Positions 22,477-57,399 of a stretch of DNA of 64,000 nt are shown in pieces; within the stretch, counting starts at the first letter, position 1; every line of letters starts with the position of its first letter. The translations under genes were made by a program, and so were the position numbers. Under the pieces are notes generated by a model. It searched no databases. It saw nothing but the letters and a program-made list of their open reading frames with translations, and was not told the DNA's origin. This stretch comes from Nemertoderma westbladi (Eukaryota; Animalia; Xenacoelomorpha), in assembly GCA_032718475.1 (NCBI GenBank), contig JAUCBJ010008638.1, positions 26,405 to 90,404 on the forward strand. Direction: 5' to 3'.

Positions 22477-23923
22477 TATTTAAATTATTTTTTTCTTCAA
22501 CATATGTGATGAAACATATGCACTACTGTATAGTAGTAAAATGTAGATAGGCCTTTAGGAGTACATTACAAATATATAGTAAAACAAAAATACATCTAGG
22601 CCTACATGAAGTTAGTCATCAAAGATAGTCTAACAACTTGGGGTATATAAATAGTAATATATAAATATAAACAGCGATTCTGAGTTTGATATTATATTAA
22701 ATAAAACGGGAGGGGTGATTGTCATTTAGTTTAGGCCTATAGTTTTAACAAAACATTATTTTAACATACCAAATGTTGCCGTTAGGCCAGGGATTACGTA
22801 CAGAATCTAACGATTTATTTCCTGTGCAGTCCCCCCAGTACTATACTCCCCGGAGGAAACACCAGTACTCATTTAGCTACCACGTAAGGATGCAAGGCAT
22901 GCGCCCTGGCTAGTCCATTCAAAGCATTCGTGCTGAAACGAAACCCTGACTGACTCATGCGATGACCCCCAAGAAATGTCAATTCAATGCAACTACTACA
23001 TCAAGGACAGTGAAAAAATTGTTTCGTCCAAGTTAAAATTAAACTATATTTAACAATTTTATTTTATAAAAATATTCACAAAATATATTTATGTAATCAG
23101 TGGTGCTACACTCTAAGCTATTGATGTGAAATGAAAAAATGTGGATATTTTCTACAGAAATGATTTAACAAATATCACTATTTTTATCTATTTTTTTACT
23201 TATTTAATTATTTATTTACTTATTTTCTATTTTTTTACAGCTTTCTGTGAAACGAACTATAGTGTGGCCAAATCTCTACTCTTTCAATTCATCAAACAAT
23301 AATTTAGATAAGTTTGTGGAGTACTGTGGCTTTTCAATAATATTATATTCTTTACTGCAAAAATTTCTTTCTTGACTGCATAAATGACGATTTTACTGTC
23401 TTTTACACTTCAATCTAATGATGTTTATTAATTTACTAAATAAACTTGTTGACTTTAACTCCATCGCAAGAATTATATTCAATATCTTGATTAATAGGGG
23501 AAAGAAACTAATTTGAAATCAATTCGAACTAGTTCAAACTAATCTATTGGAACTGAGTTCACATCTATTTTAGACAACTACAACAGTAGCAAGTGCAAGA
23601 CAGGTGGTGGTCACGGGTGGAGGCTGTATATGGAAAATATAATTATATATTGGTTGAAATTTGAAATGAAATATTGTTGACATCTTCAATTTAATTATAT
23701 ATTATATATATACTCAATACATTTTGGTAAATTATGTGACGGGACTGGTGGAGTTGACAGACTCAGTTCCGACCGGTGAAGATTGTACGCGTCGTTACGT
23801 TGTAGGCTGTTGGGTATGTTAGGCCGAAGGCCATTGAAAATAAGAGTTAGATTCTCAGTGTTGTTAATCACAGCAGTTAATAATAGCACAGTCTGAATGT
23901 GATGATATGCTGTGCACAATAGC

Positions 23924-25780
23924 TATTCGAAGAGACAGTAACAAAATACCCTGCAATATCTTACTGTAAAGTTTGTGAATCAAAACATAATCCGACCTTC
24001 TCACCAAAACAGTAAACTCTAAGTAAGCGAATATATATTGCAGTATCGGTCTCTTATAACCGGTGAGGCAGAAAACAGTCTACGAACGGACAAACTTCGA
24101 TAAAACAAAATCCCGCGCAGCGAATCCTAAAATCAGGCTGACTCACTGACGGACTAAGGGGCTCGTATACTTTGCCGCGGTGTGATTTATATGGTTGGGA
24201 TAGAGAGATGCTAGCTAGGTGCAGAAAGGTCTAACTAGCGGGCAAAGCGCAGTATGGACAAAATTATTTTATATATTTTGAGGTGTAAATAATTTCTAAC
24301 GCGCGTGTCTTGATTCTAAACAGTCAAAGTCAGTTTTGCTCCTTCACATATATAATTACTGGGTCCGGTGTGCATTTTACAAATATTCTAATTTTATAAC
24401 TTGTAGGTCCAATACTCACGAATGATAAGGCTCCTTCCCCTTTTGTGTATTTCCAGGACTCAAATTCAGGCATAAGGTTAATACTACGCCCAGAATTCGG
24501 CAATTTAATTTACCAGGTCCCTAATACTAAGAAGAAATGTGTTAGTTTACTACAGTAGGCGTACAGTTACTAATAGCTAGCCTGGTGTTCTTATCTAGAA
24601 TTTTGGTTGCCTAGATGGGCGCGGCAACTTCCTAACAGAATGTTGGCGGGGACACGGTAGATGTTAGTATCCCTAATAGCCTCAATTTATTTGCGCCTAG
24701 TGGTAAACTGCCCTACCGCCTGAACGGTACAATCCTAATTCAGGTAAAACACAGTAACCCTTCTAGCCTACAAGTTCTAATGCAATGGACACCGTTGTGC
24801 TACAAACAGTCGCCGACGCACCTATACTTAGCAAGAGTTAGGCGTACAGTTTGCTGCACCCTACCAATGTGTATGCCTTGTACCGGTGTGCCTGCATCCT
24901 ATCTGTGTACTAGTATCTCTGCCTGCTCTCCCCCGTAGGAATGTGAAGGTCTACTGCGGGTTTTCTCTGAATTAAGACAGTACGGTCCCTAGATGTAATT
25001 TTTAGCGCACAGCGTGTCACTACCTCTACCTTCGATCTTTGGTCTTACACTTAGGTAGCAAGGCATTGAACGCTGTCTAACCTTTCAGGCGATGGGCGAA
25101 TAACTAAGAGTGATATTACGGGTTGTCTCCTTCTACATTCCTCAGATGTTCTCGTTCATTGCTGTGGCCCGATGTTTAGCCTGCCATCCTGTCCCTCAGT
25201 TAAGTTCACCATGGTAAAATATGATAGGAAAAGGGCAGATGTAACAAGTATTTCTAACTTTATTACAAAACTAATATACAATAAACAATACTAAGATACT
25301 ATGCTAAGAGTATAATGCACTGAGAAAGAATAACTAATGAACAAAATCGCACCTTTTATAGCAAATTTGTGCTGCAATCAATCGAGATAAATCTAGATTG
25401 TTCTATGAGTTCTAATAGGTTTTTAAAGATAACTATTGGTCCAGCGAACACGTATCTTGCACGACATTGGTTACTATCTAATAACTGCAATCCTATTGGT
25501 TAATCTACCTTGAGCAAATGCAATTTAATTCGTAGCGGTTAATTTAAATGGGTTGAAATTTAGTACAAAAAATAATTCGCACCTACTAGGATTCAAACTC
25601 AATACCTACTACACGAATTTCCAACGCTTAACCGACTGAGCTACTGAACCACTTGAACAATGTCATACAAATAGATATACTGAATGCAAATGAGGACTTA
25701 ATGTAATCTTTATAGCAAAGTTAATTCGAACAAAATAAAATTTTGAAAATCCACGGCATTTATGAGAATATAATTCTATA
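23924..25780 (-). repeat. 3' LTR of BEL element 1
   Basis: Matches 39544-41401 with about a dozen substitutions and one indel by eye; short purine tract GGAGCGG precedes it on the minus strand. Confidence 0.97.
25575..25650 (-). ncRNA. tRNA-like Pol III module in the 3' LTR
   Basis: A box TAGCTCAGTCGG, B box GTTTGAATCC (one substitution relative to the 5' LTR copy), T6 downstream. Confidence 0.55.
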
Positions 25781-26179
25781 CCGCTCCATGAAAACAGGAT
25801 ATTATCGTGCATAAAATATACGGTTTTCACCAATACTAAATCAAATTATGGAATACTTGGGACGTACTTACATATTATTTTACAAATTAAATCTCAACAA
25901 TAATACCTTTACATAATAATTCGATACAAAATAATTACAAATTCAAACTTTATGTATTTAAGGCTTTATTAAGTAAGTACAATATAAATCTAAATTAAAT
26001 TCACCAAAATAAATCTATTGCATCTCAAATATTGCATAAATTCAAACAATCACAAGTACAAATGCTACTTAAATATAAAACAAATTGCATAAGTTCCTGA
26101 TAATTTCAAATAAATCACAAGAAAGGCTCACAAGTCTTCCGTCTACTCTTGCCTTCTATTTACTGCGAATACAAGTACT

Positions 26180-26819: not shown

Positions 26820-27779
26820 CTACCATTGGTAAAACGTCTGGGAATGCGCGGGAAGCGGACGACGCAGACCCAAGAGAAACTTGCGCCCCCTTTGATCGGC
26901 TGGTATGTGTCCTAATCCTCCTTGCGGTTCTCTGGGAAGCGAAACCGTATCCCGAGTAATCCGAATAGTCGGTTCGTATCCCCTTCGTTCTTCAACATTG
27001 ATAGTTTTCTTTAATTGTTGGCCCACCTTTTGAACCCTTATGATCCTATGCTGTCCATCCTCCCGAGGGTGACGTGCAGACGGCGCGACCAGAGTAGCTG
27101 GTATATTGGTCGCCTCTAGGACCTCCTCTTCCTCGAATACGCTCGCTCGTATACGTTTATGGTAGAATGCGGCTCGGTACGCCCATGCGACGGTTAACCA
27201 AGCTCCCTTGTTCCGCTTTTCCGTTCGGAAACGATCAAATTCACCATATGTGATACGGTTAACGACTTTCTGGAAATTCCATGTATTCTTATTGTCAGGG
27301 TATATCTGTAACAAGTATTCACGCACAACTCGAAATCCACTATCGTGAGGCAAAATATCAACTACCTCGATGAGTTCGTCATATTGTGGCATGGCGGAGA
27401 TATATCCTTCCGACATCATAGTTTGGGGATTTACCGCCCAAAATCCAAGATGCGCTCTCATCGGGAATCGTCTTCTTTGTGCCGATACATGTTCGTCAGC
27501 TAAATCTTCCCAATCATCAAATAGATTTCGCACGAGTTTTACAGATTCGTGTTCGTAAGGTATGTCTCGCAATTGGCATTCAGATGCTCGATGTCCCTTT
27601 ATATTGCAGTATGTGCATTGAGCCATAAATCTCCAGCAAGTATAAAATGTATGGGACCCTTGATCTCCACACCATCCACAGATTAGTTGAGTCGTAGTAA
27701 TGTGCCTTCCACTGCACTTTGTCGAATGATGTCCAGCGACGCCACATTTACCACACGTCGTATTAGCAGGGTACCACAC
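26820..27779 (-). CDS. Extra ORF in the env position, protein with three CCHC zinc knuckles (probably part of a longer disrupted ORF, ~26626-28341)
   Basis: CGKCGVAGHHSTKC, CGWCGDQGSHTFYTC and CTYCNIKGHRASEC; same strand as pol; no signal peptide or TM segment seen. Confidence 0.7.
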   Translation of the reverse strand: MWYPANTTCGKCGVAGHHSTKCSGRHITTTQLICGWCGDQGSHTFYTCWRFMAQCTYCNIKGHRASECQLRDIPYEHESVKLVRNLFDDWEDLADEHVSAQRRRFPMRAHLGFWAVNPQTMMSEGYISAMPQYDELIEVVDILPHDSGFRVVREYLLQIYPDNKNTWNFQKVVNRITYGEFDRFRTEKRNKGAWLTVAWAYRAAFYHKRIRASVFEEEEVLEATNIPATLVAPSARHPREDGQHRIIRVQKVGQQLKKTINVEERRGYEPTIRITRDTVSLPREPQGGLGHIPADQRGRKFLLGLRRPLPAHSQTFYQW

Positions 27780-28894
27780 TCGCTCATATATAAGATCCTA
27801 TATAAGATTATATAAGATATCTTCCTCCCACACTATAGTCGTAATCATCTGGATCGATAGGTTGGTGTGTTTCAGAAGGTTGTATGCAAACTACAGCATC
27901 TGTTGCTTCTAGTTGTCGAATCTCCGTCTGTTATTTCTTCGGGAGGTTCCTTTCAATCTCAAGAAGTTCCTCTAAAGGATCGTCAATGATCGTTGTTACT
28001 GTCGGAATTATCACCTAAGTGACCGATAGGCGCGCGCGTCTGCCGTGATTCGTCCGTAACCTCCACGATACCGTCGTGTCATATTTAGTCTTTGCGAGTT
28101 TCGCTGTACTTTCTGATAAGTCCTTTATTCCAAATATGGTGTAGTCTTTAGCTCCAAATCGTTCAAATGGCGATGCTGCTTCCTCTTGGATATCATATCC
28201 CCATCTCGGCTCTCCATGTATCCCCTTCGCCATTCTTTGAAGTATGGCTACATAATCATTGCTACTAGAGGGAATACAACAGAGTTTATTGTTAGTTGTG
28301 AGGAGATGTGAGAGTTTTCGTCTGCCCTTTGGGCTCGACAACGCTCTAACCTCCTACCCATAGCCTAAGATCTAGGGTTTCTTTAATGACACGCTGTTTC
28401 TTATCTAAAATTTTTGCCGAAATAAAAACGAATTTGGGCTAAACTGGCTGTGAGTCTAAAATACTCACTTTTTGATCCCAAACTATTATCAGAAAATAAG
28501 CAATCAAGAATTAGTAATAAATATAGGGAAGTCTATTATTCAACGTAACTTATTGAAACAAGACCGTGTAAATTTTATTAAAATTTTAGAAAGGCTCGCG
28601 AGTCTTCCGTTCTCTTGTTTCTCTAATTTTTAAGTTCCACCCGACTGTACCCTGAAATCTATTCACTGGAGAAAATTTTAAAATTTTTCAAATCCAAATG
28701 GATTGCCTAAAATTTTGAAAATGTCTCAATATTGTGAGTTCCAAGTAGAATTCCATTTCTTATACCTACAAATCCCGCTCCTATGTGACACATAAGGGTA
28801 CTACCCTCAATGTTCACATATAAAGACAATGGAATTATACCGCTGTCCTTACTACAGTGTACAGGTACGTGGAAATCTATTTGTAAACTCCTTA

Positions 28895-31800
28895 CTATTT
28901 ACTAACATTAGTTGGAGACTTGTAATCTCCAGACTTGTTTCGCGTCTCTTCAAGAAGTACGAGACGTTGAGTCGGTCTGTCTACTGTACGACCGTCAATT
29001 GTCCGTACCGTCACGGTTCTTGTTACTCCATCCATAGATGGATGTGTGTCTAAAATTACACCTGTTATCCAGAAGCATCTTTTTAAATTCACTTCTGCTA
29101 ACAGCACGTGATCTCCCGGCTTTAAAGCGCGAGTATTGTTGTACCAGGTTGTTCTGGCAGAAATAGAGGGCAAATAATGATTTTGCCATATTTCCCAGAA
29201 TTTGTTAGCCAGTAGTTGCGTGATTTTCCACGCTTTTCTACCGTAGCTATCGCCTTCTATTGGAATAGAAATAGGCATTAATGTCGTCGGTGCCTGCATC
29301 AGCAGGTGTGCCGGTGTTAAAGCAAACTGGGATTGTTTGTCATCGGGTACTAATACTATTGGTCTAGTATTTAGTATTGCCTCGATTTCAACAAACAATG
29401 TTGTCAGTTGGTCGTCTGTCAAGATGTGGTTTACTGGAATTACTTTCGCCATGGCTGTTTTTATAGATCTAATCAATCTCTCCCAGACTCCGCCTCTCCA
29501 TGGACTATCTGGAGGATTAAACTTCCAAACAATCTTGTAAGGACGTAGTTCGTTTGAGATTTGGTCATGATCTAATTTCTTAAAGGCTCTAGCAATTTCA
29601 TTTCGAGCACCAACAAAGTTTGTACCTTGGTCTGAGTACAAGCATTTTACTAGTCCGCGTCTAGCGATAAATCGCCGCAATGCTAGTATAAAGGCGTTGG
29701 TGGAAAGATCCATCACACGTTCAATATGAACTGCCCTACTGGACATGCATGTGAAAATCAGTCCCCAGCGTTTTACTAGTATATGTCCACGTTTCGTATG
29801 TATGGGACCAAAGCAGTCAATTCCAGTCTCTGTGAAAGGTGGTTTGAATGCCTGTAGTCGTGCTTGTGGAAGTTCACTCATTTCTTGGGTACTTATTCTA
29901 GAATGTACCTTTTTACAAATAATACACATACGTGTCACTGAACTTAACGCTTTACTGGGTCTAATTAATACAAATCTTGTACGTAAGTAGGAAAGACAGT
30001 GGTGTCTTCCAGCGTGTTTCAGATGTAAATGTGCGTCCAGTATCATTGCACGTTGTAATTCGTGATGTTGCGGTATTATTATTGGGTACCTAAAATCAGT
30101 ATTAAAGTCGATGTTTTGAAGCCGAGATTTATGACAAATTAAGCCATTATAAATTATCGGACTCCAACTCAATATTGGTGACGACTTGATTGGTTGACCT
30201 TGACTTATGGATGTGAATTCGCGTGCGAAATATCGCAATTGATAATGGCGAATTAATTTAATTTCACATCTGTCAATCTCAGTCAATGTGAGTCGACGTG
30301 TAAAGTTGCGTTTGCCTTTAACGTATTGTACAAAACGTACAATCCACGCTAATTTTCGGCACGCATTTGTCCAAGAATCTGTTAGGTTTATAATACGGTC
30401 GACGTAAGTATTTATGACGTCATCAAGTAAGTCAATGGAGAATTTGGAAGGTTTTGATTTACTAGATGGGCCCACGAGTCCGCCGGTAGGTATTCCCTTG
30501 TTGACTGTTGATCCGTCCGGGTCTACAAGTAATTTGTCCTTCTTCGTCTTCTTACCTTGATTGTCAGTACTTTGTGTGTCGATTCCTAATGGTGGTTTAA
30601 ATTCTATGGGATCACTGGGTTTCGGTAAACTTATTTTTGTGCCGATATTAATCCCAGGTCTCACCGTAGGTTGTAAGGTTGGTATGTCTCTTGAGCGTAA
30701 AGTAACACCTGTATTTACATTTGCGTAGGTACTACCCACATCTGTAATACATGAGGTTTCACTGTAATTATGGTTACTCAAGGGTGTCAAATCTGGTAGT
30801 TTGTCAATAGAAGGCCGCTCCAATAGGGAAACTGCGGCTTTACTATGTGTTAGTATGTTACTAATGTCTAGTAGAACATCTTGTGAAATGTCTGGTAAAA
30901 TGTTTCGCGGAACTTCCGGCGAAATGTCTAGTGACATGTCTGGCAAAATGTCTAGTTGACCGTCTGGTAATGTGTCTGGTTGACCGTCTGACGATACGTC
31001 TGGTAACATGTCTGGTTGACCGTCTGGCGATACGTCTGGTTGAGAAAGGCTCGCAAGTCTTCCTGCCTTAACTTTGTGAGTTATATTTTTCCATTTCGCC
31101 TTTGGTTTCTTCTTAAGTTTCGCCGTTGTCTTTTTCTTTGCTTTACCTTTCTTTGGTTTTTTAATTTCGGCGTCCTTAGGAATAGTATTAGACTTGTTAT
31201 CGTATAGTGGCGGCCAATGTTGTGTTGCTCTTTGTAAGAATTGTGGTCCGTGTTGCCAAAATTCCTTGTTTTCCGGTTTACAGAATTCCTCAGGCATCAT
31301 TCCTCGTGACGCAATATCAGCTGGATTTTGTGGTCCGGGACAATGTCGCCAATCTTCCTTTATTGAACGGTCTAGAATTTCTGCACGACGGTTAGCTACG
31401 AATGTCTTGAATTCAAGTGTGTCGTTGTTTATATAAAATAAAACTAACGCCGCGTCAGTCCAATAAAATATCTGTAAACTTGACTGTAGTTCAGTCTGTA
31501 TGAGGTTTACAATGGTAGTTGACAGAGTTGTGGCTTGTAGCTCAGCGCGTGGTGTCGTCATATACTTAGTAGGCATTGTTTTAGCCTTAGAAGTAATGAG
31601 CGATACATCAAACTCATCTGAGTCTACTTGTCTGCGCAAATACGCTGTCACTCCAAAGCCGTTGTCACTGGCGTCGGAAAAACAATGTAATTCTAAATTG
31701 TCAGGAAATGTTGTCTGTAATGGAAAGTACACCCGGGGTATGGAATAATCCTCTAGCGAAGATAATTGCGCCTCCCAAGTCTTCCATAAGTCCACTTGTT

Positions 31801-33703
31801 CGGATGAGATCGGTTCGTCCCATGTCAGTCCATCTTTCCAAATACTGCGCATATATATTCTTGCTTGCAGTATTATTGGGCTGATGAAACCTAATGGATC
31901 GAACAGTCTGCTTAGTTTCGACAAGCAAGACCTCTTTGTCAGAGAATCCCCTTCAGCGTCCAGTTTTACTTTCACTCGAAAGTTGTCTGTGTTCGGGTCC
32001 CAAAATAGTCCCAACACCTTGGTCGTCGGCAGTGGTTCGAACTCTAAGTCAATGTCACCACCCCCACGTTCAGTCGTTTCGAATGAATTTACTAATTCGG
32101 CACTGTTTGAGGCAAACTTGGTGAGGTTAAAACCTCCGCCTGCTAAACAGTCCCGTAATTGATGTGCTACTGTTATAGCACGTTCTACTGTGTCACAACT
32201 TTGTAATCCATCGTCTACATAAAAATCTCGCTCTATGATCTGGATTACCTCTGGGTCATATTTATGTTTCTGATCCCTAGCGGTTTGCTTTAGGGCGTAC
32301 ATAGGGCAGTTTGGGCTGTCCCTGGCACCGAAAACGCGAACTTGCATTTGGTAAGTCGCCGGTGGTTGACTTAAGTCTCCATCCGGGTACCAGAGGAACC
32401 TCAAACTGTCTCTGTCTCGCTCTAACGCTCGCACTTGGTGAAACATCGCTTCTACGTCACAAGTAAATGCTACTTGGCGCTGACGGAAGCGCATAATCAC
32501 CCCCATGAGATAATTATTCATGTTTGGTCCATCCATCAACTCACTATTGAGAGACATTCCCTCAAACAGAGCCGCGCAGTCATTGACTACACGTACTTTG
32601 TCTGGTTTATCGGGGTGTCTCACGTAGTGATGTGGCAAATAGTATGTCTGGTCAGTCACAATCTCTGGGTTAGTCATTCTGATAGCGTATCCTTTCGTCA
32701 AATATGTCTCCATCTGAGTATTATACTGCAGATGGGCTTTCTCGTCCTTTAATAAACGTTGTCGTATTGAGTGTAACCGTCTTAAGGCTAACGGATAGTT
32801 ATTTATAAGTTTAGGACGTTGGTTACGCCATAGCATCCCTACCTCATAATGTCCGTCTTTCGTCTGGCGGATAGTATCTTCCATGATCTTTAAAGATTGT
32901 TTCTCTTGTTCCGACACACATGGTTCGTAACTACCAGGTTCGGCTGTGTCTTGTTCCAACCACCTGATAGTTTTCTCTGTTAATTCCTTGTCCAGTGCAG
33001 CTTGTTCCACTTGATGATTTCTTAACGCATCTTCATCGACGGGCGTTGTTGAGGTTATTGGTTGAGGTAGACTCACAAGCCTTCCGGCGTTATCATCTAT
33101 CGTTGATGGAACCTCTGCCTGACTCCGCTCCTTCTCAATCTTTATACTAACCTTGTGGATAGGCTGCTCTTTGTGACTTATCGTACGCGCTACACACGTC
33201 GTACTTGTAACATTGTCGTGTTTTGTCGAACGTAGTGTAGTATAGTCCTTGTCGTGTGAAAAGGAATGAGTCGAAGTTATAGTTAATAAACTACATGTAC
33301 TTTGTACATCGTCTTCCTCATCACTTATATCTAGTGTGCGCACAGGCGCTCGAGTGTACCAACCTATCGGAGTTCGACAGGCGTATGCATTTCCTGCTAC
33401 GACTACCGAAGGTCTGGTTTCCCACACTTGATGTAAGTTGAATTGATCTGTCCCGATCAGCATTGCTACTGATCTATAGTTGACAGGACATTCAGGTACA
33501 CCAAGGTGTCTGAAATACTTACGGTCCTCTAAGGATTGTTCCGGCACTGGACCCAGTAGGTTACTAAAGTCCTTGGTGGCTGCAAAGGTTAAATCCTTAA
33601 AGGGTAACAAAGACCTCTCCTTTTCGCTGTGTTGCGATTTCGGAAGAAGAGTGTCTAAGTTTAACTTAACTCGTGTCACTGGTATTGCACGTTGGCCATG
33701 CAT
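28895..33703 (-). CDS. pol: BEL/Pao Pol (RT, RNase H, integrase)
   Basis: YYLPHH..KVRVVNDCAA, FYVDD, LHCFSDAS, NPADIASRG, HHCC finger, GIDCFGP, SDQGTNF and GGVWERLI. Confidence 0.97.
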   Translation of the reverse strand: MHGQRAIPVTRVKLNLDTLLPKSQHSEKERSLLPFKDLTFAATKDFSNLLGPVPEQSLEDRKYFRHLGVPECPVNYRSVAMLIGTDQFNLHQVWETRPSVVVAGNAYACRTPIGWYTRAPVRTLDISDEEDDVQSTCSLLTITSTHSFSHDKDYTTLRSTKHDNVTSTTCVARTISHKEQPIHKVSIKIEKERSQAEVPSTIDDNAGRLVSLPQPITSTTPVDEDALRNHQVEQAALDKELTEKTIRWLEQDTAEPGSYEPCVSEQEKQSLKIMEDTIRQTKDGHYEVGMLWRNQRPKLINNYPLALRRLHSIRQRLLKDEKAHLQYNTQMETYLTKGYAIRMTNPEIVTDQTYYLPHHYVRHPDKPDKVRVVNDCAALFEGMSLNSELMDGPNMNNYLMGVIMRFRQRQVAFTCDVEAMFHQVRALERDRDSLRFLWYPDGDLSQPPATYQMQVRVFGARDSPNCPMYALKQTARDQKHKYDPEVIQIIERDFYVDDGLQSCDTVERAITVAHQLRDCLAGGGFNLTKFASNSAELVNSFETTERGGGDIDLEFEPLPTTKVLGLFWDPNTDNFRVKVKLDAEGDSLTKRSCLSKLSRLFDPLGFISPIILQARIYMRSIWKDGLTWDEPISSEQVDLWKTWEAQLSSLEDYSIPRVYFPLQTTFPDNLELHCFSDASDNGFGVTAYLRRQVDSDEFDVSLITSKAKTMPTKYMTTPRAELQATTLSTTIVNLIQTELQSSLQIFYWTDAALVLFYINNDTLEFKTFVANRRAEILDRSIKEDWRHCPGPQNPADIASRGMMPEEFCKPENKEFWQHGPQFLQRATQHWPPLYDNKSNTIPKDAEIKKPKKGKAKKKTTAKLKKKPKAKWKNITHKVKAGRLASLSQPDVSPDGQPDMLPDVSSDGQPDTLPDGQLDILPDMSLDISPEVPRNILPDISQDVLLDISNILTHSKAAVSLLERPSIDKLPDLTPLSNHNYSETSCITDVGSTYANVNTGVTLRSRDIPTLQPTVRPGINIGTKISLPKPSDPIEFKPPLGIDTQSTDNQGKKTKKDKLLVDPDGSTVNKGIPTGGLVGPSSKSKPSKFSIDLLDDVINTYVDRIINLTDSWTNACRKLAWIVRFVQYVKGKRNFTRRLTLTEIDRCEIKLIRHYQLRYFAREFTSISQGQPIKSSPILSWSPIIYNGLICHKSRLQNIDFNTDFRYPIIIPQHHELQRAMILDAHLHLKHAGRHHCLSYLRTRFVLIRPSKALSSVTRMCIICKKVHSRISTQEMSELPQARLQAFKPPFTETGIDCFGPIHTKRGHILVKRWGLIFTCMSSRAVHIERVMDLSTNAFILALRRFIARRGLVKCLYSDQGTNFVGARNEIARAFKKLDHDQISNELRPYKIVWKFNPPDSPWRGGVWERLIRSIKTAMAKVIPVNHILTDDQLTTLFVEIEAILNTRPIVLVPDDKQSQFALTPAHLLMQAPTTLMPISIPIEGDSYGRKAWKITQLLANKFWEIWQNHYLPSISARTTWYNNTRALKPGDHVLLAEVNLKRCFWITGVILDTHPSMDGVTRTVTVRTIDGRTVDRPTQRLVLLEETRNKSGDYKSPTNVSK

Positions 33704-36700
33704 ACTACTTACGGTATAACTGACGTTCTTACCTTGTCAGAGATCCGTCACGACATCAGCTACCTTCTCGTCCACATAGCTGTGAGATGAGGCTGAATCC
33801 AGGATAGCGTAGATCCTTTTGCTCCCTTTGGTGCCAGTAATCTTAATAGGAATTACGCTGAAACCTTTTAGTTGGTCAGTCGTCAGAAGCGCGATCGATG
33901 GTTGTTCGTCTCCATCTGAGTATACGTCGTCGTCCTCGGTTTCTTCGTCAGAAGACCCGGATTGCTCTGGGAAATAATCCCGAATATGCGTCACGAACGT
34001 TGGAGTCGTTCTCGATTCACGATTCTTGTCGGCCGTATTACATTTCGCTGCTGCTTCTGGGTGTTCCCTAGTGAAGCGTTTGGTCGGCGTATGGCTGTCC
34101 GTATGGAGCAAACCGTCGTGGTTGCGTCCACAGGATGGACAAGTGTCCGTATTTGGACAATCTTTGCGGACGTGTCCGTGTTGAGTACACCGCCAACAAG
34201 AGTCCAATGGCCGTATCTGCAGCCATCGTTCTTCCGAGTTTAACTCGCGAAACAGCTGACAACCTCTTAACTTGTGAGTGGTGTGCCGCTTGCCTAGCTG
34301 CTCGCAGTATTGGCAACCGCTAAAGTCTGCACTCAATTGTTGTCTGGTCTGTTTGATCCCAATAGGTGCGGATACTCTACTACCGTCCAAAAATTGTCGG
34401 GTTTCTGTCGATGTGGCGTAAGTGGCCATCTTGGTGGATGTTGTCTGGGGTTTTTGTCGGTTTGAGGATGGTAAGGTGATTCCTTCTGCTACGATGTGTT
34501 GGTCAGTGTAGTTGGATCGAGTCTCCACTACCGCTTCCCTGGATATTAATAGGTATACATCCTCTAGTTTCAAGAATCCACCCCGTTCTTCCCGCTGGTA
34601 TTCGATCTTCCTCCACTCCCGACGAAGTCGATGGTGGAGTCTCCCTATGATCTTTAATAGGACTGTAGGGGTGTTCCCGTAATCGAGTTGTCCAATAGAT
34701 CTCAATGTAGTGATAGTGTTTTTTATTTCGTCAGCTAGCTTTAGTAAGTCGACTGGTTTAGTAATAGCCCCCCCTTACAGAGTTCCTCTATCACTGACTT
34801 GGCCATGCTGACTGTACCTCCGTAGATTGAAGTTAAGCGATCGTACGCTAACTCGAAGGCATCTGGTACACCAACGAAAGTCTCCGCTAAGCGTTTTGGT
34901 TCTCCCGTCAAGGTTTGAAGCAGATAGTTGAACTTTTCCCTTGAGGTAAAAGCGCACGCCGCAATTTGAGATTCGATGTAGTCTACGAACGTGTGCCAAT
35001 GTTTAGAGTTACCGGAAAACTTAGGTGGTTGTTGCACCGGTAGTCCTTGTCTGGCTGCGAATTTAGCTATCTCCTCGGCTACATTCAAAGTTTCGCGTCC
35101 TTGGTTGGCAATCGAGTTGATGTTCTCCCGTCTTGGCGCTTTTCTTTGATACGAGGTGGTTTTTGAAGTTATCACTCTTTGCGGTTCCTTCGTGTTTCTA
35201 TTGTGTTCGAATTCGGTGTTTCTCGAACTATCAGTTTGAACTTCCTCCAAGCGTTCCTCGATCTGAGCCAACTTGTTAACAACTGTTCGCTTGTTAACAA
35301 CATTCTGTCGCAGAATGTCGGCGAATTGTTGTGTACTGATCGCGTCCTTTGGTTGTAACGCTTTCTGTGTTGGTGTATTTTGTGGAGGATTGTCTATAAA
35401 GGAATTGTCTGAACGCTCGCATTTATATTCATCGGCCGCTCCCGTTCTAAACACTTCGCGTTCCGGGTAATCCGATTCACTCGAAGTACTACTATCACCT
35501 GGATACGGTGGCCGACGTGCTCGCGTCCGTTGGGTTGTCCGGATTCTAACATTCCTTTTCGAAACATCGTCTACTGGTTTCCGTCGTTCGGTAGGCTCGC
35601 AGGTCTTCCTCGAAGTCGTAGAATGCGATGTAAACTGGTTAAGCGGTCGCGTATCCACTGGTCTCCGTTGTTCGGTAGGCTCGCAGGTCTTCCTCGAAGT
35701 TGTAGAATGCGATGTAAACTGGTTAAGCGGTCGCGTAATGGCGTTTGAGTCCAAAGTCCTCGTAGGTCTAAACACAGTTGGGTTTACGTTGTGCGTGACC
35801 GGTTTTGGTGTCGACGGTTGACTCCGCTTTCGTCCTTCTGGGCTCCTCTCGGAGGCGCACCCATGAGGCGGACGTGTTTCCACCACCCCTGGGGCCAGTC
35901 CGACTGATGTTATTATCAGACCGGGCCGGATGGTGGCCCGATGCTTCCCGGGTTCTGTTTTCGGTCCCCCGATCACACCGGCACAGCTCGTCGAACGTGT
36001 AGCCAGATGGGCGGCTACTGTCAACTTACTGTGGCCTGACTGTACATTGAGCCAACTCAAAGTATAACAAAGAGTCAACCGGCAGGTGGACCAGTCGATA
36101 GCGATCGAGCACCAAGGTCGCCCTTGGGCCTAACCGACGGTCTTGTCCCACGTGGGCTTGCGCTACCCAACATTGGAATTTTGACACGTTTTCACCTGCC
36201 TCGCCGGCAATATTGAGGGGAAGTAAGTTCCACAAACAATATTGACTAGCTCGAAAGCTAGGAACAAGTAACCACTTACCCGTCCTGTACACGTGTACTC
36301 AACAGATGCTCACAATATCAAGTACACTACGGTAAACACAAATTCTGACACATACCATGCACACACAGAGGACATAATCGGGTAAGACAAAATCCGTGTC
36401 AAAATCGGGAAAGACAAAATCGGAGGGGACAAAATTGTATCGACCAGCAACAAAAATCGAGAGTACCTTATTTTACCGACAGGGTAAAATAACTTTGTGT
36501 GCACAAAGTATGCTGGGGCGCAGTAAAGTATGGTCCTACTAATACCAGCGGCGTCTGGACCAACTGGCAAGGGTTCCCATACTCACTCGCAGTGGCCACA
36601 CATACAATCACGTGCACTCACGTACCCACAGCAACAGAAAGCTCAAAGACCCAGACAGTTTATTCCAATGCCACCAAAGACCAAATCAGCTGAACATGGA

Positions 36701-38736
36701 GACAATAACATATAGTATCAAAAAAACGGAACAGCTGATGGCCAATGGAACCATCCAAGCCCCAAGCAAACTGCCACTGATCGCCCACATACAAAACATA
36801 GTTCACACCACATAAACCACAAATCACGCCATGCCACCACCCCTACTGTGTACAGGACTGGCAGTACGGCAACAGGCCGACTAGACGGTACCACGGCACC
36901 ATGTCGATTCATGGTTCGCTAGACACGAGGGCCTTAAGTATCTCCCTTGCACTTAGACGACAATTTTAACGTGCCCCCAGACCCTCACGAGTCTGCCGCC
37001 GCCTGCTACAGGCACCCCTATAGAGACCTCACCTCTTTAGGTACCTGTTTAGTCGTCATTAATGCAGGCCCTGCCAATAAACTACTACGATCTGTAATCG
37101 GCGGGTTACTTACCTTGACTCTCGGAATAGGCGATGACGTTGCTCTCGGCGGTACAAACTTGTCCGGAATAACATACCTTGCATCGTGTATAGGAGATAT
37201 ACTGCTACTACCAGCAATCGAAACAGGTCTTTTATTCGTAATTGGTGCGAACATTGGAGTTACTTGCAGAAATCGTTGACATAAGTCTTTAACCAATTCC
37301 CGTTCTCGCTCAGGTGCTCCTACGCTTACTTCCTTCATTCGTTCCTGAATTTGACGATGTCTTACCTCTAACCGGTCTAGATCGTGTCCGTCTCGAGATC
37401 TCATTGATCGATCGCGGGCTTGAAGATCCAGATCTTCCTTGGCGTTGGCTAATTCTCTCGCCTTCTTCTCGAGTTCGAAATGAAGTTTAACTTCTTTCGC
37501 GCGTTGTTCCGTCTGTTGTTGTTGCGCCTCGAACTCCGCTAGTCGTATAGCTGATTGAGCCTTTATTTGCCGTTTTTTCATTTCGGCTCTCGCTTCTGAA
37601 ACTAGCCTTTGTCGCTCTAACGCGGCCGCTGCCGCTGCCGTTTGTCGCTCTAACTCGGCCGCTGCCATTTGTCGCTCTAACTCGGCCGCTGCCGCTGCCG
37701 TTTGTTGCGCTAACTCGGCTGCTGCCGTTTGTTGTGCAATGTCCAACTCTAACTTTTCCATCTCGGCTGCTTCCAACTCGGCTTGTTCTTACAGATGAGA
37801 GATTCTCGCAACATTCGCAACGCGTAGTTTCTCTTCCTCTACTGCCGCTTGCACCGTTAACAATTGAGTTTGTTCCTCAATTTCTCGTTGTTGTCTATAG
37901 TACTGTTGTTGCTGTCGAGAAATTTCTGACGTCACTATACTTACCTCGCCAATTTCGCTGCGAATACTCACTAATGAATGGTCCAGTATTCCCGGTACCG
38001 GTTCGATTTGTACGGGTGAAGTTTCCCTCGTATATTCCGGCACGGTTTCCAAATCGCCTACGTCTTCGCCGCACATACGTAAGTGATCCGTCAGATGTTT
38101 CAATTGTCCATCCAGTCGGTACAGTTCCTGTTCTTCCTCGGGCTGTAATAACTCGTCGGAAACCGACTCACCTAATAACTGGTCCGCTTGTTCCTGTTGT
38201 ATCTGTCTAACGGTCGTCTTAAACTGAATCAGTTTCTCCCTAGCGATCATTAATTTCTCGAGGATTCTAAACTGTGTGTCCATATCCTGTCTCTGTCTAG
38301 CTAGATCTTGTAGACCGATTAGGTTATCTACAGACTTATGTACTTTACTCTGTACTCTAACCTGTAGGGTGTAGAACTCGAACCGAGACATCGGAGCGGT
38401 CAACTCGTCTAATATGCGTTGGCCTTCTCCAATACTCCTGGTAATATGCGCCATGTATCCTCCGACGCTTCTAACCACACTCTCCTGGCTTCCTACTGAA
38501 CTTACCATGTCCATTTCCCTGTGTCTAGGTTGCGGGACCGTTAGAAAATTCTCAGTCCTGCCGTCACCTCGTACTACGGCATCCGGTACTCCCGTTGGAT
38601 GTACTGGTGACGCGCACGGTGTAGGTTCGGTAGGCTCACGAGTCTTCCCCTGTGGTTCTTCCGCTTCTGACTTATCCGCGTCACATGAGTCATAGTCGGT
38701 TTGTGTATTCTTCGTATAGTCTTGTTTGTCACTCAT
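33704..38736 (-). pseudogene. gag: Disrupted Gag-protease part of the single BEL polyprotein
   Basis: Collinear with the open sister ORF at 60592. Lesions: TAA at 37789, 1.2-kb insertion at 35839-37031, 1-nt loss in a G run near 34770, TGA at 33737. Has PPKFSGN, three BEL-type knuckles and protease motif ILDSAS. Confidence 0.9.
35839..37031. mobile_element. Probable solo LTR of a third family inserted in gag
   Basis: TG...CA ends; 4-bp TSD CTTC/CCTC (1 mismatch); removing the insert and one TSD copy restores the frame KQVPKEGRKRSQPSTPKPVT; absent from the sister element. Confidence 0.65.
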
Positions 38737-39532
38737 TTCGGTAGTTGTAAGTCAAGTAAAGTGAGTGTCAAAGTATCAAACTTACCGTATTTTATTTCTA
38801 AACGGTATTAATTACAGTCATATAAAATTAGCCTACCGGCCGATTTTATAGCAGATGGATAAAATTAGCCTAGCGGCCAATTTTACAGCAAATAAATGTC
38901 ACAGAATAAGTATATAATAAAATTAGCCTAGCGGCCAATTTTATAACAAATAAATCGGATAACGATATGCGTTATCAAAAGGTAAATTAAATACAATAAT
39001 ACGGACTAATTCAGCAATAAACAAAGAAATCATACGGAATGCATAAATACTTGAGACAGTGGAACCCACAATAGTTTTAACTAATACGGTAATGCCTAAC
39101 TGATTTATGCAACTTTTCGAACTCACCCCTCCAATGATTCTCCAGAAAAACAGATTCCCAGATACAAACCGGACGTGAACCTTTCCGTTTCCAGCGTTGC
39201 GGACGAAGTGCGATTTTCCCAACCAAAGTTGTTGAGTTATCTATCTCCCAAACTTGCTAAACACGGTCTTGCTCTCGTTACAGTCTAGAAATGAGCTCTG
39301 AATCCTGAAAAACAAAAGAGTTAGGTTTTACTTTTACGAAAATTTTGTACCGGTACAATATGGTATTTAAACCCTTTTAAACACCGGTATTAAATTCCAA
39401 ATATTTTACACGCGGTTCAAATCAAAATTTTATTTCAAAAAATTAGCACTTAGCCTATCAAATATAAACTTTTACCTCAAAATACAAAATTTTCAAATAA
39501 CTTTAGTCCTTCCGAACCGTAGTTCAGTAAAA

Positions 39533-39543
39533 CACATTCCTAC
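39533..39543 (-). promoter_or_regulatory. Non-canonical primer-binding site GTAGGAATGTG of element 1
   Basis: Abuts the 5' LTR, lacks TGG, and is the exact reverse complement of LTR positions 40556-40566 and 24935-24945. Confidence 0.7.
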
Positions 39544-40974
39544 TATTCGAAGAGACAGTAACAAAATACCCTGCAATATCTTACTGTAAAGTTTGTGAAT
39601 CAAAACATAATCCGACCTTCTCACCAAAACAGTAAACTCTAAGTAAGCGAATATATATTGCAGTATCGGTCTCTTATAACCGGTGAGGCAGAAAACAGTC
39701 TACGAACGGACAAACTTCGATAAAACAAAATCCCGCGCAGCGAATCCTAAAATCAGGCTGACTCACTGACGGACTAAGGGGCTCGTATACTTTGCCGCGG
39801 TGTGATTTATATGGTTGGGATAGAGAGATGCTAGCTAGGTGCAGAAAGGTCTAACTAGCGGGCAAAGCGCAGTATGGACAAAATTATTTTATATATTTTG
39901 AGGTGTAAATAATTTCTAACGCGCGTGTCTTGATTCTAAACAGTCAAAGTCAGTTTTGCTCCTTCACATATATAATTACTGGGTCCAGTGTGCATTTTAC
40001 AAATATTCTAATTTTATAACTTGTAGGTCCAATACTCATGAATGATAAGGCTCCTTCCCCTTTTGTGTATTTCCAGGACTCAAATTCAGGCATAAGGTTA
40101 ATACTACGCCCAGAATTCGGCAATTTAATTTACCAGGTCCCTAATACTAAGAAGAAATGTGTTAGTTTACTACAGTAGGCGTACAGTTACTAATTGCTAG
40201 CCTGGTGTTCTTATCTAGAATTTTGGTTGCCTAGATGGGCGCGGCAACTTCCTAACAGAATGTTGGCGGGGACACGGTAGATGTTAGTATCCCTAATAGC
40301 CTCAATTTATTTGCGCCTAGTGGTAAACTGCCCTACCGCCTGAACGGTACAATCCTAATTCAGGTAAAACACAGTAACCCTTCTAGCCTACAAGTTCTAA
40401 TGCAATGGACACCGTTGTGCTACAAACAGTCGCCGACGCACCTATACTTAGCAAGAGTTAGGCGTACAGTTTGCTGCACCCTACCAATGTGTATGCCTTG
40501 TACCGGTGTGCCTGCGTCCTATCTGTGTACTAGTATCTCTGCCTGCTCTCCCCCCGTAGGAATGTGAAGGTCTACTGCGGGTTTTCTCTGAATTAAGACA
40601 GTACAGTCCCTAGATGTAATTTTTAGCGCACAGCGTGTCACTACCTCTACCTTCGATCTTTGGTCTTACACTTAGGTAGCAAGGCATTGAACGCTGTCTA
40701 ACCTTTCAGGCGATGGGCGAATAACTAAGAGTGATATTGCGGGTTGTCTCCTTCTACATTCCTCAGATGTTCTCGTTCATTGCTGTGGCCTGATGTTTAG
40801 CCTGCCATCCTGTCCCTCAGTTAAGTTCACCGTGGTAAAACATGATAGGAAAAGGGCAGATGTAACAAGTATTTCTAACTTTATTACAAAACTAATATAC
40901 AATAAACAATACTAAGATACTATGCTAAGAGTATAATGCACTGAGAAAGAATAACTAATGAACAAAATCGCACC

Positions 40975-41120
40975 TTTTATAGCAAATTTGTGCTGCAATC
41001 AATCGAGATAAATCTAGATTGTTCTATGAGTTCTAATAGGTTTTTAAAGATAACTATTGGTCCAGCGAACACGTATCTTGCACGACATTGGTTACTATCT
41101 AATAACTGCAATCCTATTGG
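40975..41120 (-). promoter_or_regulatory. Pol II promoter in the LTR: three CCAAT boxes and TATAAAA
   Basis: ATTGG on the + strand at 41056, 41087 and 41116; TTTTATA at 40975; same layout in the sister LTR. Confidence 0.65.
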
Positions 41121-41195
41121 TTAATCTACCTTGAGCAAATGCAATTTAATTCGTAGCGGTTAATTTAAATGGGTTGAAACTTAGTACAAAAAATA

Positions 41196-41271
41196 ATTCA
41201 CACCTACTAGGATTCGAACTCAATACCTACTACACGAATTTCCAACGCTTAACCGACTGAGCTACTGAACC
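41196..41271 (-). ncRNA. tRNA-like Pol III module in the 5' LTR
   Basis: GGTTCAGTAGCTCAGTCGGTTAAGCG...GAGTTCGAATCC with consensus A and B boxes, then TTTTTT; the cloverleaf is imperfect. Confidence 0.6.
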
Positions 41272-43426
41272 ACTTGAACAATGTCATACAAATAGATATA
41301 CTGAATGCAAATGAGGACTTAATGTAATCTTTATAGCAAAGTTAATTCGAACAAAATAAAATTTTGAAAATCCACGGCATTTATGAGAATATAATTCTAT
41401 AATAGCAGTAACAACGATACAGTAATGATATAATAACGACGACGGTCAAAACTATTCCGGTCTCACAACCGTAACGGAATTAACTAACTCAACTGAACTA
41501 ATAATGAGTGAACACAAGAGTTATACCATTGACTCATATTGGTTTTAGCCCTACACTACTGGGCGGTCTCTAATACGCAATGGATGCGGGTTCTTGTCCT
41601 CCCCAATGTGCTTCCCTGCCCGCTATTGGCTTATATACTAATTGTCACTTCGCCACTCCCTGTTGGTGTTTCCCCCTGGTGCTAGCCTCACTAGCTGGTT
41701 CCTCCCTCTGGGGTGGTTTGACCTCTCACCTCTCTCTGCGGCTTATGGCGTGTATCGCCCTCCCCAGTTGGTTATGAGGTGAGATTATTATTGGTAATCT
41801 CACATCGCCAACTATATTGGTAAAATGCCACTAGTCCCATTTCCGGTGGGTAATGTAGGGAATTGAATCCGCTTTCACTCCCCCCCATGCTATCTTCCCA
41901 GTGAGAAGAAGATAGCATCAACCTTAAGTGCGCTTAAATGCGCAAGAATCCGATCTAATATTGGACGTGGGGTGGAGTACTGTTTTCCAAAACATTATTA
42001 GGGTTTGCCGTTATCAGAATCCACGATTCAGTAACACAACACCATATTTGTTTTGTTTGTCTTCCCATTGATAAATGTTCAGATTTGACCCGTACTCTTT
42101 GCGTTTTAGGTCAATCCAATGGCTTTTGTGGCATGATGGAGATCAATGCCAATGTCTTGTGCCTTAAGTTTAGGAATATTTGTTTGTGTGCAGAATATTT
42201 TTCGTTTGGGCTATTCTTTAGTAGATTTTCAATGAATTATAGTCAGCAAGTACCATACCATGAGGCAGTAGAGTTAACAGTTGCACAAATATCATAATTA
42301 ATACCCACCCTATTAGATTCCCTGTTATTTAACCCGAGGGCAGGAAACAACCCGAGGACGAAGCCTAAGGGTGGGGAGTGTAAATAACTCAAACCAAGGG
42401 AAAATACCTCAATAATAGGTAATAAATAATGATATGAGTATTAACCTATTGAGCCATTGAATATGAAACAATTTCATAATTACATCCTAGAATGTAATTA
42501 ATTCATTAATTACATTAGCAAATTTAAATTAATTATTTTATCTGATCTCTTATTAACCAGTTAGATATAATCATAGATGTAAATGTGGTGTTTATTCAAC
42601 AGCTAACTTTTGGTTTTATCCGAAACTTTGTTTAACTTTGAATGGAGTTTGTTCGGAAACGCACTTATTCACAGACAACATTTACATTAATTATCATTCA
42701 TCATCCTAAGGCTTAGTTAGTTAGTTAGTTGCTCAGTGTTGAAGATTAGATAATAATGGAGGTACATTGAAATAATTGTTATTAACTGTACAGAGTATAT
42801 CTCATAAGATATTGTATTGTTTTAAGGAAAGACAAATAGGAATGGATTTTACTCCTCTACTACTCTTAATTTATATAATAATAATCACTTATTCAAATTA
42901 CTATTTCTCCTCCCAAGTATAATATATTTTCTTAATAGATTTATTTGCAATAGAAAAAAAACATTTACTATAAAACTGTAAACCTGTAAAAGAGTTTTTT
43001 TATTTTGATGCCCATATATTCAAAATGCTTCAAGATTCAAACTGCTCTCACACAGAAGAGTACCAGTGCTATGGTGTGGCTTTCATTCTACTGCCACATG
43101 AATAAACTGAGGCATAATTACAGTAGATTATATTAATTTCCAATTACTTCCTCCCAGTAATTTCCCAGTAGGGGCATCCATCATCCGATACCATGCCTGT
43201 TCTGGACTGGGTCAGTGCACAATCTTAACTAAAAGTGCAGGTCATTTACAAGATTTTCTTCTGGAAATTGAGCTGTTTTTGGCCAGAACAAAATTTCAAA
43301 AATACACTCAGTTAGCTGCAGCAGAAGTAAGTAAGCTGCAAAGACAAATGTTCCTTTGAAGTTACAGAAGTGAAAAAGATTCCATCCCAGACCAAGCATT
43401 CTAGACCTGGAAGATGCATTATTGTA

Positions 43427-57030: not shown

Positions 57031-57399
57031 TACTGATAGTGGAGCATCCTTTATAGTATTATAAGGGGGCCATGCATTACTATAGTAGTATAGTTGCATA
57101 TAAAATTATTTATTTAACATTTTCATTATTTTTTATTACTTATTTTGTAGTATGAATTCCAACTGAATTGCAGAAGTGCAAGTGCTGATACTGTACCAAC
57201 TACAGTATTCCTTAATATAATCATATATTATAACGGTAGTTATAATAATATAATAATAATATAATTATTGATGAATTATTTCACTATAAGGTAGCATTTG
57301 TAGTTTAACTTTAGCGTAAAAACTTTGAAAATCCGACGTATTTTGATTAAGTTACAGTAATGTAATATGCCTATTTATATTTGTACACATAAAACCTTA

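What the first reader, a model, noticed from the sequence alone, without database searches (positions are those of the whole stretch)
39533..40566. Candidate tRNA-independent self-priming in a BEL/Pao family: PBS pairs with the element's own LTR, with covariation between two elements
Seen: neither BEL element has a TGG-starting PBS. In element 1 the 11 nt abutting the 5' LTR (sense GTAGGAATGTG, 39543-39533) are the exact complement of sense CACATTCCTAC inside the LTR (40566-40556; also 24945-24935 in the 3' LTR). In element 2 the PBS position reads GTAGGAAGTA(T) (59555) and its LTR has (G)TACTTCCTAC at 58287-58296, the homologous position downstream of a shared GTAAGACC..AGATC..GTGACAC block. 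The distal bases differ between elements (TGTG/CACA versus GTA/TAC) but pairing is kept. In both, pairing stops exactly at the LTR boundary, with the arm's 3' end pointing into U5 as a minus-strand primer must. The arm may sit in a hairpin loop (ACCTGT..ACAGGT; CCTTC..GGGGG). A chance match of one fixed 11-mer in 1.86 kb is about 1857/4^11, or 4e-4, before counting the second element. Known: self-priming is established for fission-yeast Tf1 and related chromoviruses, where the first 11 nt of the RNA anneal to the PBS and are cut; BEL/Pao elements normally use host tRNA. Inference: this lineage self-primes, and because the arm lies 400-500 nt downstream of the obvious TATA box, it would use an internal or 3'-LTR-derived segment rather than the Tf1-like 5' end. 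I am not aware of a description of this, but I could not search.
Basis: partly seen in the sequence, partly recalled or inferred. Interest (0 to 1): 0.92.

Follow-up and report, generated by a model that had tools for sequence, protein, structure and literature searches.

The report
BEL/Pao retrotransposons with self-made primers
Two jumping genes here have no tRNA landing site and instead carry, at that spot, 10-11 letters that match a stretch of their own terminal repeat; in most relatives examined the match appears only if a predicted intron is cut out of the repeat, so this lineage likely starts copying itself with a piece of its own RNA.

Summary
Confirmed, and wider than reported. Both elements are BEL/Pao (Sinbad-like integrase spacing). 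The 11 nt (E1) and 10 nt (E2) after the 5' LTR perfectly complement a single site in their own LTR.

Relatives from public contigs show the same. 16 of 20 non-TGG elements with defined LTR ends have a 10-13 nt self-match, with unrelated letters between families. Controls: 0 of 234 swapped pairs, 0 of 8 TGG-type elements. In 11 of the 16 the match exists only across a predicted GT-AG intron in the LTR; E1 and E2 have it contiguous. A blind scan hit 11 of 26 further loci (antisense 2 of 26).

Best reading: Tf1-like self-priming (about 0.8), often with a splice-built primer. There is no RNA or biochemical evidence. Folding does not favour the helix in E1 or E2, and their arm lies 1.0-1.3 kb from the LTR end against 44-193 nt in relatives. 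Nine literature searches found no description, but the Saci-1 paper was unavailable. The scan noted this idea before on other genomes; I saw those notes after my own test.

The parts
39544..41401 (-). E1 5' LTR, 1858 nt, TA..TA termini
   Evidence: self-BLAST and end comparison
23924..25780 (-). E1 3' LTR, 12 substitutions and 1 indel from the 5' LTR
41402..41406 (-). target-site duplication GCTAT, upstream copy
23919..23923 (-). target-site duplication GCTAT, downstream copy
39533..39543 (-). E1 PBS position, 11 nt, no TGG
40556..40566 (-). E1 arm (candidate self-primer 3' end, ends in AC), 5' LTR copy
24935..24945 (-). E1 arm, 3' LTR copy
25781..25790 (-). E1 short purine-rich tract before the 3' LTR (likely PPT)
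   Evidence: sequence; role inferred from position
40945..41120 (-). E1 predicted Pol II promoter: three CCAAT, TATAAAA at 40981, initiator-like site about 29 nt downstream
   Evidence: same layout in E2; start site not measured
41185..41275 (-). E1 tRNA-like segment in U3 (A-box and B-box-like), homologous in E2
   Evidence: no ARAGORN or Rfam hit
40588..40669 (-). E1 predicted intron upstream of the arm (GTAAGA..TTCAG); does not split the arm
   Evidence: motif scan; conserved donor block with E2; splicing untested
39730..39814 (-). E1 conserved TATAAA plus GC-stem block late in the LTR (candidate poly(A) region)
   Evidence: alignment with E2 59189-59300; role inferred
39305..39584 (-). E1 predicted intron spanning the LTR end and the PBS (donor GTAAGA at 39584, branch/pyrimidine/CAG acceptor at 39305)
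   Evidence: both sites conserved in E2; splicing untested
28895..38736 (-). E1 gag-pol: DUF1759, RT YVDD, Peptidase_A17/RNase H, integrase D(61)D(49)E, DUF5641; broken by stops near 37790 and 33738, a frame change near 34770 and about 1.2 kb extra at 37012-35823 relative to E2
26820..27797 (-). E1 extra ORF (325 aa, Cys/His knuckle-like N-terminus) between pol and the 3' LTR
   Evidence: no Pfam hit
57269..59554 (+). E2 5' LTR, about 2286 nt, TG..CA, both ends inferred
57405..57495 (+). E2 tRNA-like segment in U3
57529..57800 (+). E2 predicted promoter: three CCAAT, TATAAAA at 57767, initiator-like site about 29 nt downstream
58135..58261 (+). E2 predicted intron (donors 58135/58165/58184, acceptor at 58261 followed directly by TCCTAC)
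   Evidence: untested
58287..58296 (+). E2 arm, 10 nt, ends in AC
59555..59564 (+). E2 PBS position, 10 nt, no TGG
59548..59730 (+). E2 three tandem CA+PBS copies (59555, 59621, 59694) with local complementary hairpin arms; unit number varies among copies
   Evidence: joints
59501..60007 (+). E2 predicted intron spanning the LTR end and all PBS copies
   Evidence: untested
60592..64000 (+). E2 gag, open to the window end, DUF1759; 54% identical to the E1 Gag N-terminus

Best explanation
E1 and E2 are BEL/Pao retrotransposons whose primer-binding position is complementary to a 10-11 nt arm in their own LTR, and they likely prime minus-strand DNA synthesis with their own RNA rather than a tRNA. 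Shown: the complementarity, its position, its polarity and its spread across relatives. Inferred, step by step: transcription starts about 30 nt after the first TATA box; the arm, in the transcribed R region, anneals to the PBS with help from nucleocapsid; the RNA is cut just after the arm's terminal AC, probably by the element's RNase H as in Tf1; the 5' piece primes; the R sequence left downstream of the cut allows strand transfer; plus-strand synthesis copies the arm back into the new PBS, which would keep the two matched automatically. In most relatives the arm would exist only after splicing of an LTR intron, while an unspliced copy of R passes the intron on. E1 and E2 are a long-LTR form with a contiguous arm. 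Given self-priming, I put about 0.6 on the 5' copy being the primer.
For: Window: unique 11 and 10 nt matches at offset 0, cognate pairs 6-7 kcal/mol better than crossed pairs. Relatives: 14 of 16 non-TGG elements (E1 and E2 included) reach 10-13 perfect nt, 10 spliced and 4 contiguous; 0 of 234 swapped pairs reach 10; 0 of 8 TGG elements exceed 7. Four elements first left out add 2 hits and 2 misses, so 16 of 20. The match starts with GT in 12 of 14, and has GT at its second base in the other two, though this was not imposed. Sister families L080/L083 change three exon-1 bases and the PBS follows. Blind scan: 11 of 26 held-out loci, against 2 of 26 antisense, 0 of 15 TGG-clade sense, 1 of 15 TGG antisense and 1 of 104 block shuffles. 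A poly(A)-type hexamer follows the arm within 1-125 nt in 13 of 14 relatives. The helix has mean probability above 0.5 in 5 of 10 spliced models and 0 of 10 unspliced. Non-TGG and TGG elements fall on two sides of a 98% SH-aLRT branch.
Against: No RNA start, end, splice or primer data: no raw RNA run was available. ViennaRNA gives the arm:PBS pairs probability 0 in 1.45 and 1.8 kb models of E1 and E2; forcing the helix costs 3.6 kcal/mol in E1 and 17.8 in E2, whose PBS copies sit in local hairpins. 5 of 10 spliced relatives and both contiguous relatives also fold otherwise. The arm is 1012 and 1258 nt from the LTR end in E1/E2 against 44-193 in relatives. E1 has an AATAAA upstream of the arm (near 40872), absent in E2, that would cut R short if used. 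4 of 20 defined elements (L089, L091, L074, L031) and 15 of 26 held-out loci have no 10-nt match. Splice filters were loosened after first misses (nulls re-run). E1 sits on a long branch.
Confidence: 0.8

Rival explanations
1. The arm:PBS helix is a structural switch (packaging, dimerisation, translation or poly(A) control) and priming uses something else.
For: Long-range pairings in 5' leaders are common in LTR elements (general knowledge); E2's leader has alternative hairpins over the PBS; the E1/E2 distance is long.
Against: The partner is always 0-8 nt from the LTR end with primer polarity and a shared GT start; no tRNA-type site replaces it; matches are perfect Watson-Crick rather than G-U rich, as expected if the PBS is copied from the primer.
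Confidence: 0.09
2. The primer is element RNA but comes from a separate short LTR transcript (solo LTR, 3' LTR read-out or the partner RNA) acting in trans, with its end made by a host nuclease rather than RNase H.
For: The cis helix is not predicted in E1/E2; both families are highly repeated in the laid runs (3804 and 4538 contigs in X1), so LTR-only transcripts could be plentiful.
Against: In short-LTR relatives the cis helix forms in 5 of 10 spliced models; Tf1 shows cis priming with RNase H cleavage (PMC7175516, passages). Perfect matching within each family is easier to keep in cis.
Confidence: 0.07
3. A host tRNA half or other small RNA primes, and the LTR match is incidental.
For: ICTV describes belpaovirids as tRNA-primed (PMC8742986, whole text); half-tRNA primers exist in Copia lineages (PMC6317226, passages). 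Host tRNAs could not be searched: no genome is held.
Against: At least 14 different PBS sequences among the 16 matched elements, each matched by its own LTR and none by another family's (0 of 234); matches across splice junctions cannot come from a host RNA.
Confidence: 0.03
4. Chance complementarity.
For: E2 alone: 32 of 3000 and 30 of 300 in two nulls.
Against: E1 4 of 3000; 16 of 20 relatives and window elements against 0 of 234 swaps and 0 of 8 controls.
Confidence: 0.01

Closest known systems
Tf1/Tf2/Tj1 and the Tf1/sushi group (Ty3/gypsy chromoviruses), self-primed reverse transcription
   Same: No tRNA site; about 11 nt after the 5' LTR complement an R-region stretch; a cut is needed to free a 3' end (PMC7175516, PMC10085805, PMC4600332, passages).
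   Different: Different superfamily. In Tf1 the primer is the first 11 nt of the RNA with two flanking helices; here the arm is about 385-490 nt past the predicted start in E1/E2, and in most relatives it is split by a predicted intron.
Tcn1 clade and TAR/Houba/Osr-1 Ty1/copia lineages of plants, predicted self-priming
   Same: Self-priming inferred from sequence complementarity outside fission yeast (PMC6317226, passages).
   Different: Not BEL/Pao; no splice-built primer mentioned in the passages seen.
Belpaoviridae (BEL/Pao), ICTV profile
   Same: Gag-PR-RT-RH-IN order, LTRs, PPT, Pfam A17/DUF1759/DUF5641.
   Different: Profile states an 18-nt PBS for host tRNA-Arg or -Gly, LTRs 0.2-1.2 kb and genomes 4.2-10 kb (PMC8742986); E1 has no tRNA site, 1.86-kb LTRs and 17.5 kb.
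Sinbad/Saci-1 and the Sailor lineage (Sinbad, Sparrow, Surcouf)
   Same: Integrase DD(49)E spacing as in Sinbad and Saci-1 (PMC554778 passages); nearest named proteins come from molluscs, cnidarians, echinoderms, a nemertean and a brachiopod.
   Different: Term searches in four papers on these clades (PMC554778, PMC3118150, PMC6238403, PMC8556966) found no mention of PBS or tRNA; no reference sequence was in my tree.

Membership tests
BEL/Pao (Belpaoviridae) | Pao-type Gag/Pol domains in PR-RT-RH-IN order | tested here: met
   PF05380, PF03564, PF18701; YVDD at 506, RH motifs 686-804, integrase D/D/E 1307-1419
BEL/Pao (Belpaoviridae) | LTRs with target-site duplication | tested here: met
   E1 LTR pair and 5-bp TSD; termini TA..TA are atypical
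BEL/Pao (Belpaoviridae) | 18-nt PBS complementary to a host tRNA 3' end (ICTV description) | tested here: not met
   No TGG within the bases after either LTR; I treat this as a descriptive trait, the family being defined by Pol phylogeny
Sailor/Sinbad lineage | Integrase DD(49)E spacing | tested here: met
   E1 49; of 34 loci where the pattern matched, 24 have 49, 1 has 50, 4 have 52, and the 5 TGG-type have 53
Sailor/Sinbad lineage | RT/RH or IN tree placement with reference elements | not tested
   No reference Sinbad, Sparrow or Surcouf sequence was in the tree
Tf1/sushi self-priming group | Ty3/gypsy chromovirus Pol | tested here: not met
   Pol is BEL/Pao
Tf1/sushi self-priming group | PBS complementary to the element's own R sequence | tested here: met
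Tf1/sushi self-priming group | Primer is the first 11 nt of the RNA | tested here: inconclusive
   Predicted start is about 385-490 nt upstream in E1/E2; one relative (L005) has a TATA 35 nt before the donor; no start site measured
Tf1/sushi self-priming group | Three-helix 'pretzel' fold | tested here: inconclusive
   Central helix not predicted in E1/E2, predicted in 5 of 10 spliced relatives; flanking helices not tested one by one
Tf1/sushi self-priming group | RNase H cleavage of the RNA duplex frees the primer | not testable with these tools
   needs biochemistry

The most novel reading that the evidence does not exclude
A widespread Sinbad/Sailor-like branch of BEL/Pao has dropped tRNA priming, and host splicing of an intron inside the LTR builds the primer at the exon-exon junction, so the spliceosome gates reverse transcription. 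E1/E2 are a derived long-LTR form with a contiguous arm, in which a second conserved intron across the PBS would separate translated mRNA (no PBS, not self-cleaving) from genomic RNA.
Probability: 0.6. Interest if true: 0.9.

Novelty: new variant of a known kind. Interest (0 to 1): 0.8.

Why it matters
It would move a large, little-studied group of animal LTR retrotransposons out of the tRNA-primed class and add an origin of self-priming in a superfamily where it is not described in the papers searched. A primer assembled at a splice junction would tie reverse transcription to RNA processing, require different fates for the two R copies, and free these elements from tRNA supply and from tRNA-fragment silencing. 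It also gives a simple rule for finding the 'missing' PBS of such elements, and a sharp prediction: RNA ends at the arm's AC.

Tried and rejected
No whole genome is held, so copies and host tRNAs could not be listed. No RNA holder was listed among 7 runs, all contigs; this says nothing on expression. Laying contigs on E1 and E2 showed no variant at arm or PBS among the 40 rows printed each time (185 and 142 rows not shown), so within-family covariation is untested; no joint matched a predicted intron. A conserved LTR motif found nothing in viral or metagenome contigs; the Pol alignment found nothing in viral contigs. ARAGORN found 0 genes in the window and Rfam 0 matches at E<=1 in 39300-60000. 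An initiator plus DPE reading at E1's arm was dropped because E2 lacks it. The second TATAAA as a promoter was rejected: TCAGT lies 41-44 nt away, not about 30. A spliced arm for E2 reaches only 9 nt with a weak donor. My first E2 LTR start (57146) was wrong; searches used it, which only lengthens the searched LTR by 123 nt. L092 was an internal tandem repeat, not an LTR. The careful tree did not finish; the quick tree was used. Look-ups of earlier findings by sequence and by place returned nothing.

Full report
The elements. Element 1 (E1) is a 17.5-kb BEL/Pao retrotransposon on the minus strand. Its LTRs are 41401-39544 and 25780-23924, differ at 13 places, and are flanked by the duplication GCTAT. 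Both LTRs run TA..TA. Pol carries Peptidase_A17 and DUF5641, Gag carries DUF1759, and the integrase spacing is D(61)D(49)E, like the DD(49)E given for Sinbad and Saci-1 (PMC554778). Gag-pol is broken at several places. Element 2 (E2) is a sister family on the plus strand (Gag N-terminus 54% identical), cut by the window end. Its LTR is inferred as 57269-59554 from contig depth and alignment. The host was not identified; the nearest named proteins are 39-44% identical and come mostly from marine invertebrates.

The observation. The 11 nt after E1's 5' LTR are the exact complement of one LTR site (40566-40556), and the 10 nt after E2's LTR complement 58287-58296. Markov-2 shuffles reach this in 4 and 32 of 3000 trials. 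Own pairs are -16.3 and -15.1 kcal/mol, crossed pairs -8.9 and -9.7. The arms lie in homologous blocks, but E2 has a second TCCTAC 29 nt upstream, directly behind a predicted splice acceptor, and aligners disagree on which matches E1's arm. The covariation is therefore real at the level of 'each PBS fits its own LTR', not as countable base changes.

Relatives. A Pol alignment fetched 79 metagenome loci and 27 loci from genome bins. I take these as host-animal contigs; that is inferred. Flanking repeats and cross-comparison defined LTR ends. A distant group (30-32% identity) has a TGG-starting PBS; the label tRNA-Tyr type for it is recalled. The closer group has no TGG and a different sequence in nearly every family. 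Reading those LTRs showed the complement of the PBS split by a GT..AG segment with a pyrimidine tract. A scripted test on 16 non-TGG elements, E1 and E2 included, found 10-13 perfect nt in 14: ten across a predicted intron of 76-451 nt and four contiguous (E1, E2, L002, L084); L089 and L091 reached 8. Swapping PBS between families gave 0 of 234 at 10 nt or more, and 8 TGG elements reached at most 7. The acceptor filter was loosened from 10 to 8 pyrimidines in 15 after three misses, and one donor word was added from L048; the nulls were re-run with the same settings. Four elements first left out for unclear ends gave two hits (L103, 12 nt spliced, 8 nt from the LTR end; L043, 13 nt in the 3' LTR copy) and two misses (L074, L031). 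The total is 16 of 20, 11 of them spliced. L080 and L083 differ at three exon-1 bases and the PBS follows.

Blind test. In 26 further loci not used before, a scan for CA, 0-6 nt, then GT with an arm 40-250 nt upstream hit 11 (8 spliced, 3 contiguous). Controls were 2 of 26 antisense, 0 of 15 TGG-clade sense, 1 of 15 TGG antisense and 1 of 104 block shuffles. GT and the distance window were imposed from the first set. One hit (L088) is probably chance, and I did not check which of the 15 misses contain an LTR at all. A quick RT tree of 108 rows (94 of 107 candidate sequences plus 14 database proteins) puts 20 non-TGG and 15 TGG rows on two sides of a 98% SH-aLRT branch, with E1 on a long branch on the non-TGG side. 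Without an outgroup this is not shown to be a clade.

Geometry. In 13 of 14 relatives a poly(A)-type hexamer follows the arm within 1-125 nt, and the arm ends 44-193 nt from the LTR end. That places it in R with sequence left for strand transfer after a cut, as in Tf1, where the first 11 nt pair with the PBS and RNase H cuts after base 11 (PMC7175516; PMC10085805). E1 and E2 share three CCAAT boxes, TATAAAA and an initiator-like site about 29 nt on, so the arm would lie about 385 and 490 nt into the unspliced RNA and 1012 and 1258 nt from the LTR end. They share a predicted intron just upstream of the arm, a late TATAAA/GC-stem block, and a donor near the LTR end with a leader acceptor that together would splice out the PBS. 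None of this splicing is measured.

Against. Folding gives the arm:PBS pairs probability 0 in full 5' models of E1 and E2; forcing them costs 3.6 and 17.8 kcal/mol. Among relatives the helix passes 0.5 in 5 of 10 spliced models, 0 of 10 unspliced and 0 of 2 contiguous. E1 has an AATAAA upstream of the arm that E2 lacks. E2's PBS is triplicated within hairpins.

Mechanism. The simplest account is self-priming: the arm anneals to the PBS, a cut after its AC frees a 3'-OH, and plus-strand synthesis later copies the arm into the new PBS. The last step follows from the standard LTR scheme (PMC7175516) and would explain perfect matching with free drift between families. Where the arm is split, one R copy must be spliced and another left unspliced for the intron to persist; contiguous arms would arise by intron loss or acceptor shift. 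I give self-priming in cis 0.8, a structural-only helix 0.09, a trans element primer 0.07, a host small RNA 0.03 and chance 0.01. Whether the 5' or the 3' copy primes is open, about 0.6 to 0.4.

What is known. The ICTV profile (PMC8742986, whole text) describes BEL/Pao as primed by host tRNA. Self-priming is shown for Tf1 and predicted for Tf1/sushi, Tcn1 and the TAR/Houba Copia lineages (PMC6317226, PMC4600332, passages). Term searches within PMC554778 (also section 5), PMC3118150, PMC6238403, PMC8556966, PMC8220671 and PMC4558846 showed no self-priming or split primer in BEL/Pao. Nine library searches (listings and abstract starts) found no such description. The Saci-1 paper (DeMarco 2004) and two primary Tf1 papers were not held, Frame 2001 and Repbase/GyDB entries were not seen, and no supplements were opened; any of these could hold an earlier remark. 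The scan's own notes report the same idea on other genomes (seen); they are unchecked and are not counted as support.

Verdict. Real feature; works like Tf1 self-priming but is not a member of that group; a new variant, with the splice-built primer in relatives as the surprising part. Interest 0.8.

Noticed in passing
window 41401, 39544, 25780, 23924: E1's LTRs begin TA and end TA at both copies, with a clean 5-bp TSD, while sister E2 is TG..CA: a symmetric change at both integrase ends in a recently inserted copy.
   Followed up: partly
window 41275-41185 (-) and 57405-57495 (+): Both LTRs carry a homologous tRNA-like segment with A-box and B-box-like motifs and a following T run in U3, upstream of the CCAAT boxes; no ARAGORN or Rfam hit. 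Possibly a Pol III or TFIIIC site acting as boundary or enhancer.
   Followed up: partly
window 39584-39305 (-) and 59501-60007 (+): Conserved donor near the LTR end and conserved leader acceptor predict an intron that removes the PBS from the mRNA.
   Followed up: partly
window 59548-59730: E2 has three tandem CA+PBS units with built-in complementary hairpins; laid contigs show joints that skip a unit.
   Followed up: partly
window 39814-39730 (-) and 59189-59300 (+): Best-conserved LTR block between the two families: TATAAA followed by a GC-rich stem and a U/GU-rich tract; candidate structured poly(A) signal.
   Followed up: partly
window 27797-26820 (-): 325-aa ORF after pol with Cys/His knuckle-like motifs and no Pfam match.
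   Followed up: no
window 9208-6800 and 17028-13570 (-): Two related non-LTR retroelement copies (RT plus Cys/His and restriction-like endonuclease motifs; resemblance to Hero/NeSL-type elements is recalled, not tested), each with a tandem-repeat insert in RT.
   Followed up: no
window 48049-49380 (+): Single-exon fibrinogen C-domain protein with an N-terminal hydrophobic segment (Pfam PF00147, E 3.6e-46).
   Followed up: no
window 53042-55183 (+): 713-aa ORF without Pfam match that looks like a DNA transposase, near inverted repeats at 50598-51928.
   Followed up: no
loci L080-L106: Contigs in several prokaryotic genome bins hold BEL/Pao elements, some with both LTRs, most likely host-animal DNA in the bins.
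   Followed up: no
L054:8175-8379, L103:4290-4678: Other atypical LTR ends among relatives: one copy ending TA and one ending CG in both LTRs.
   Followed up: no
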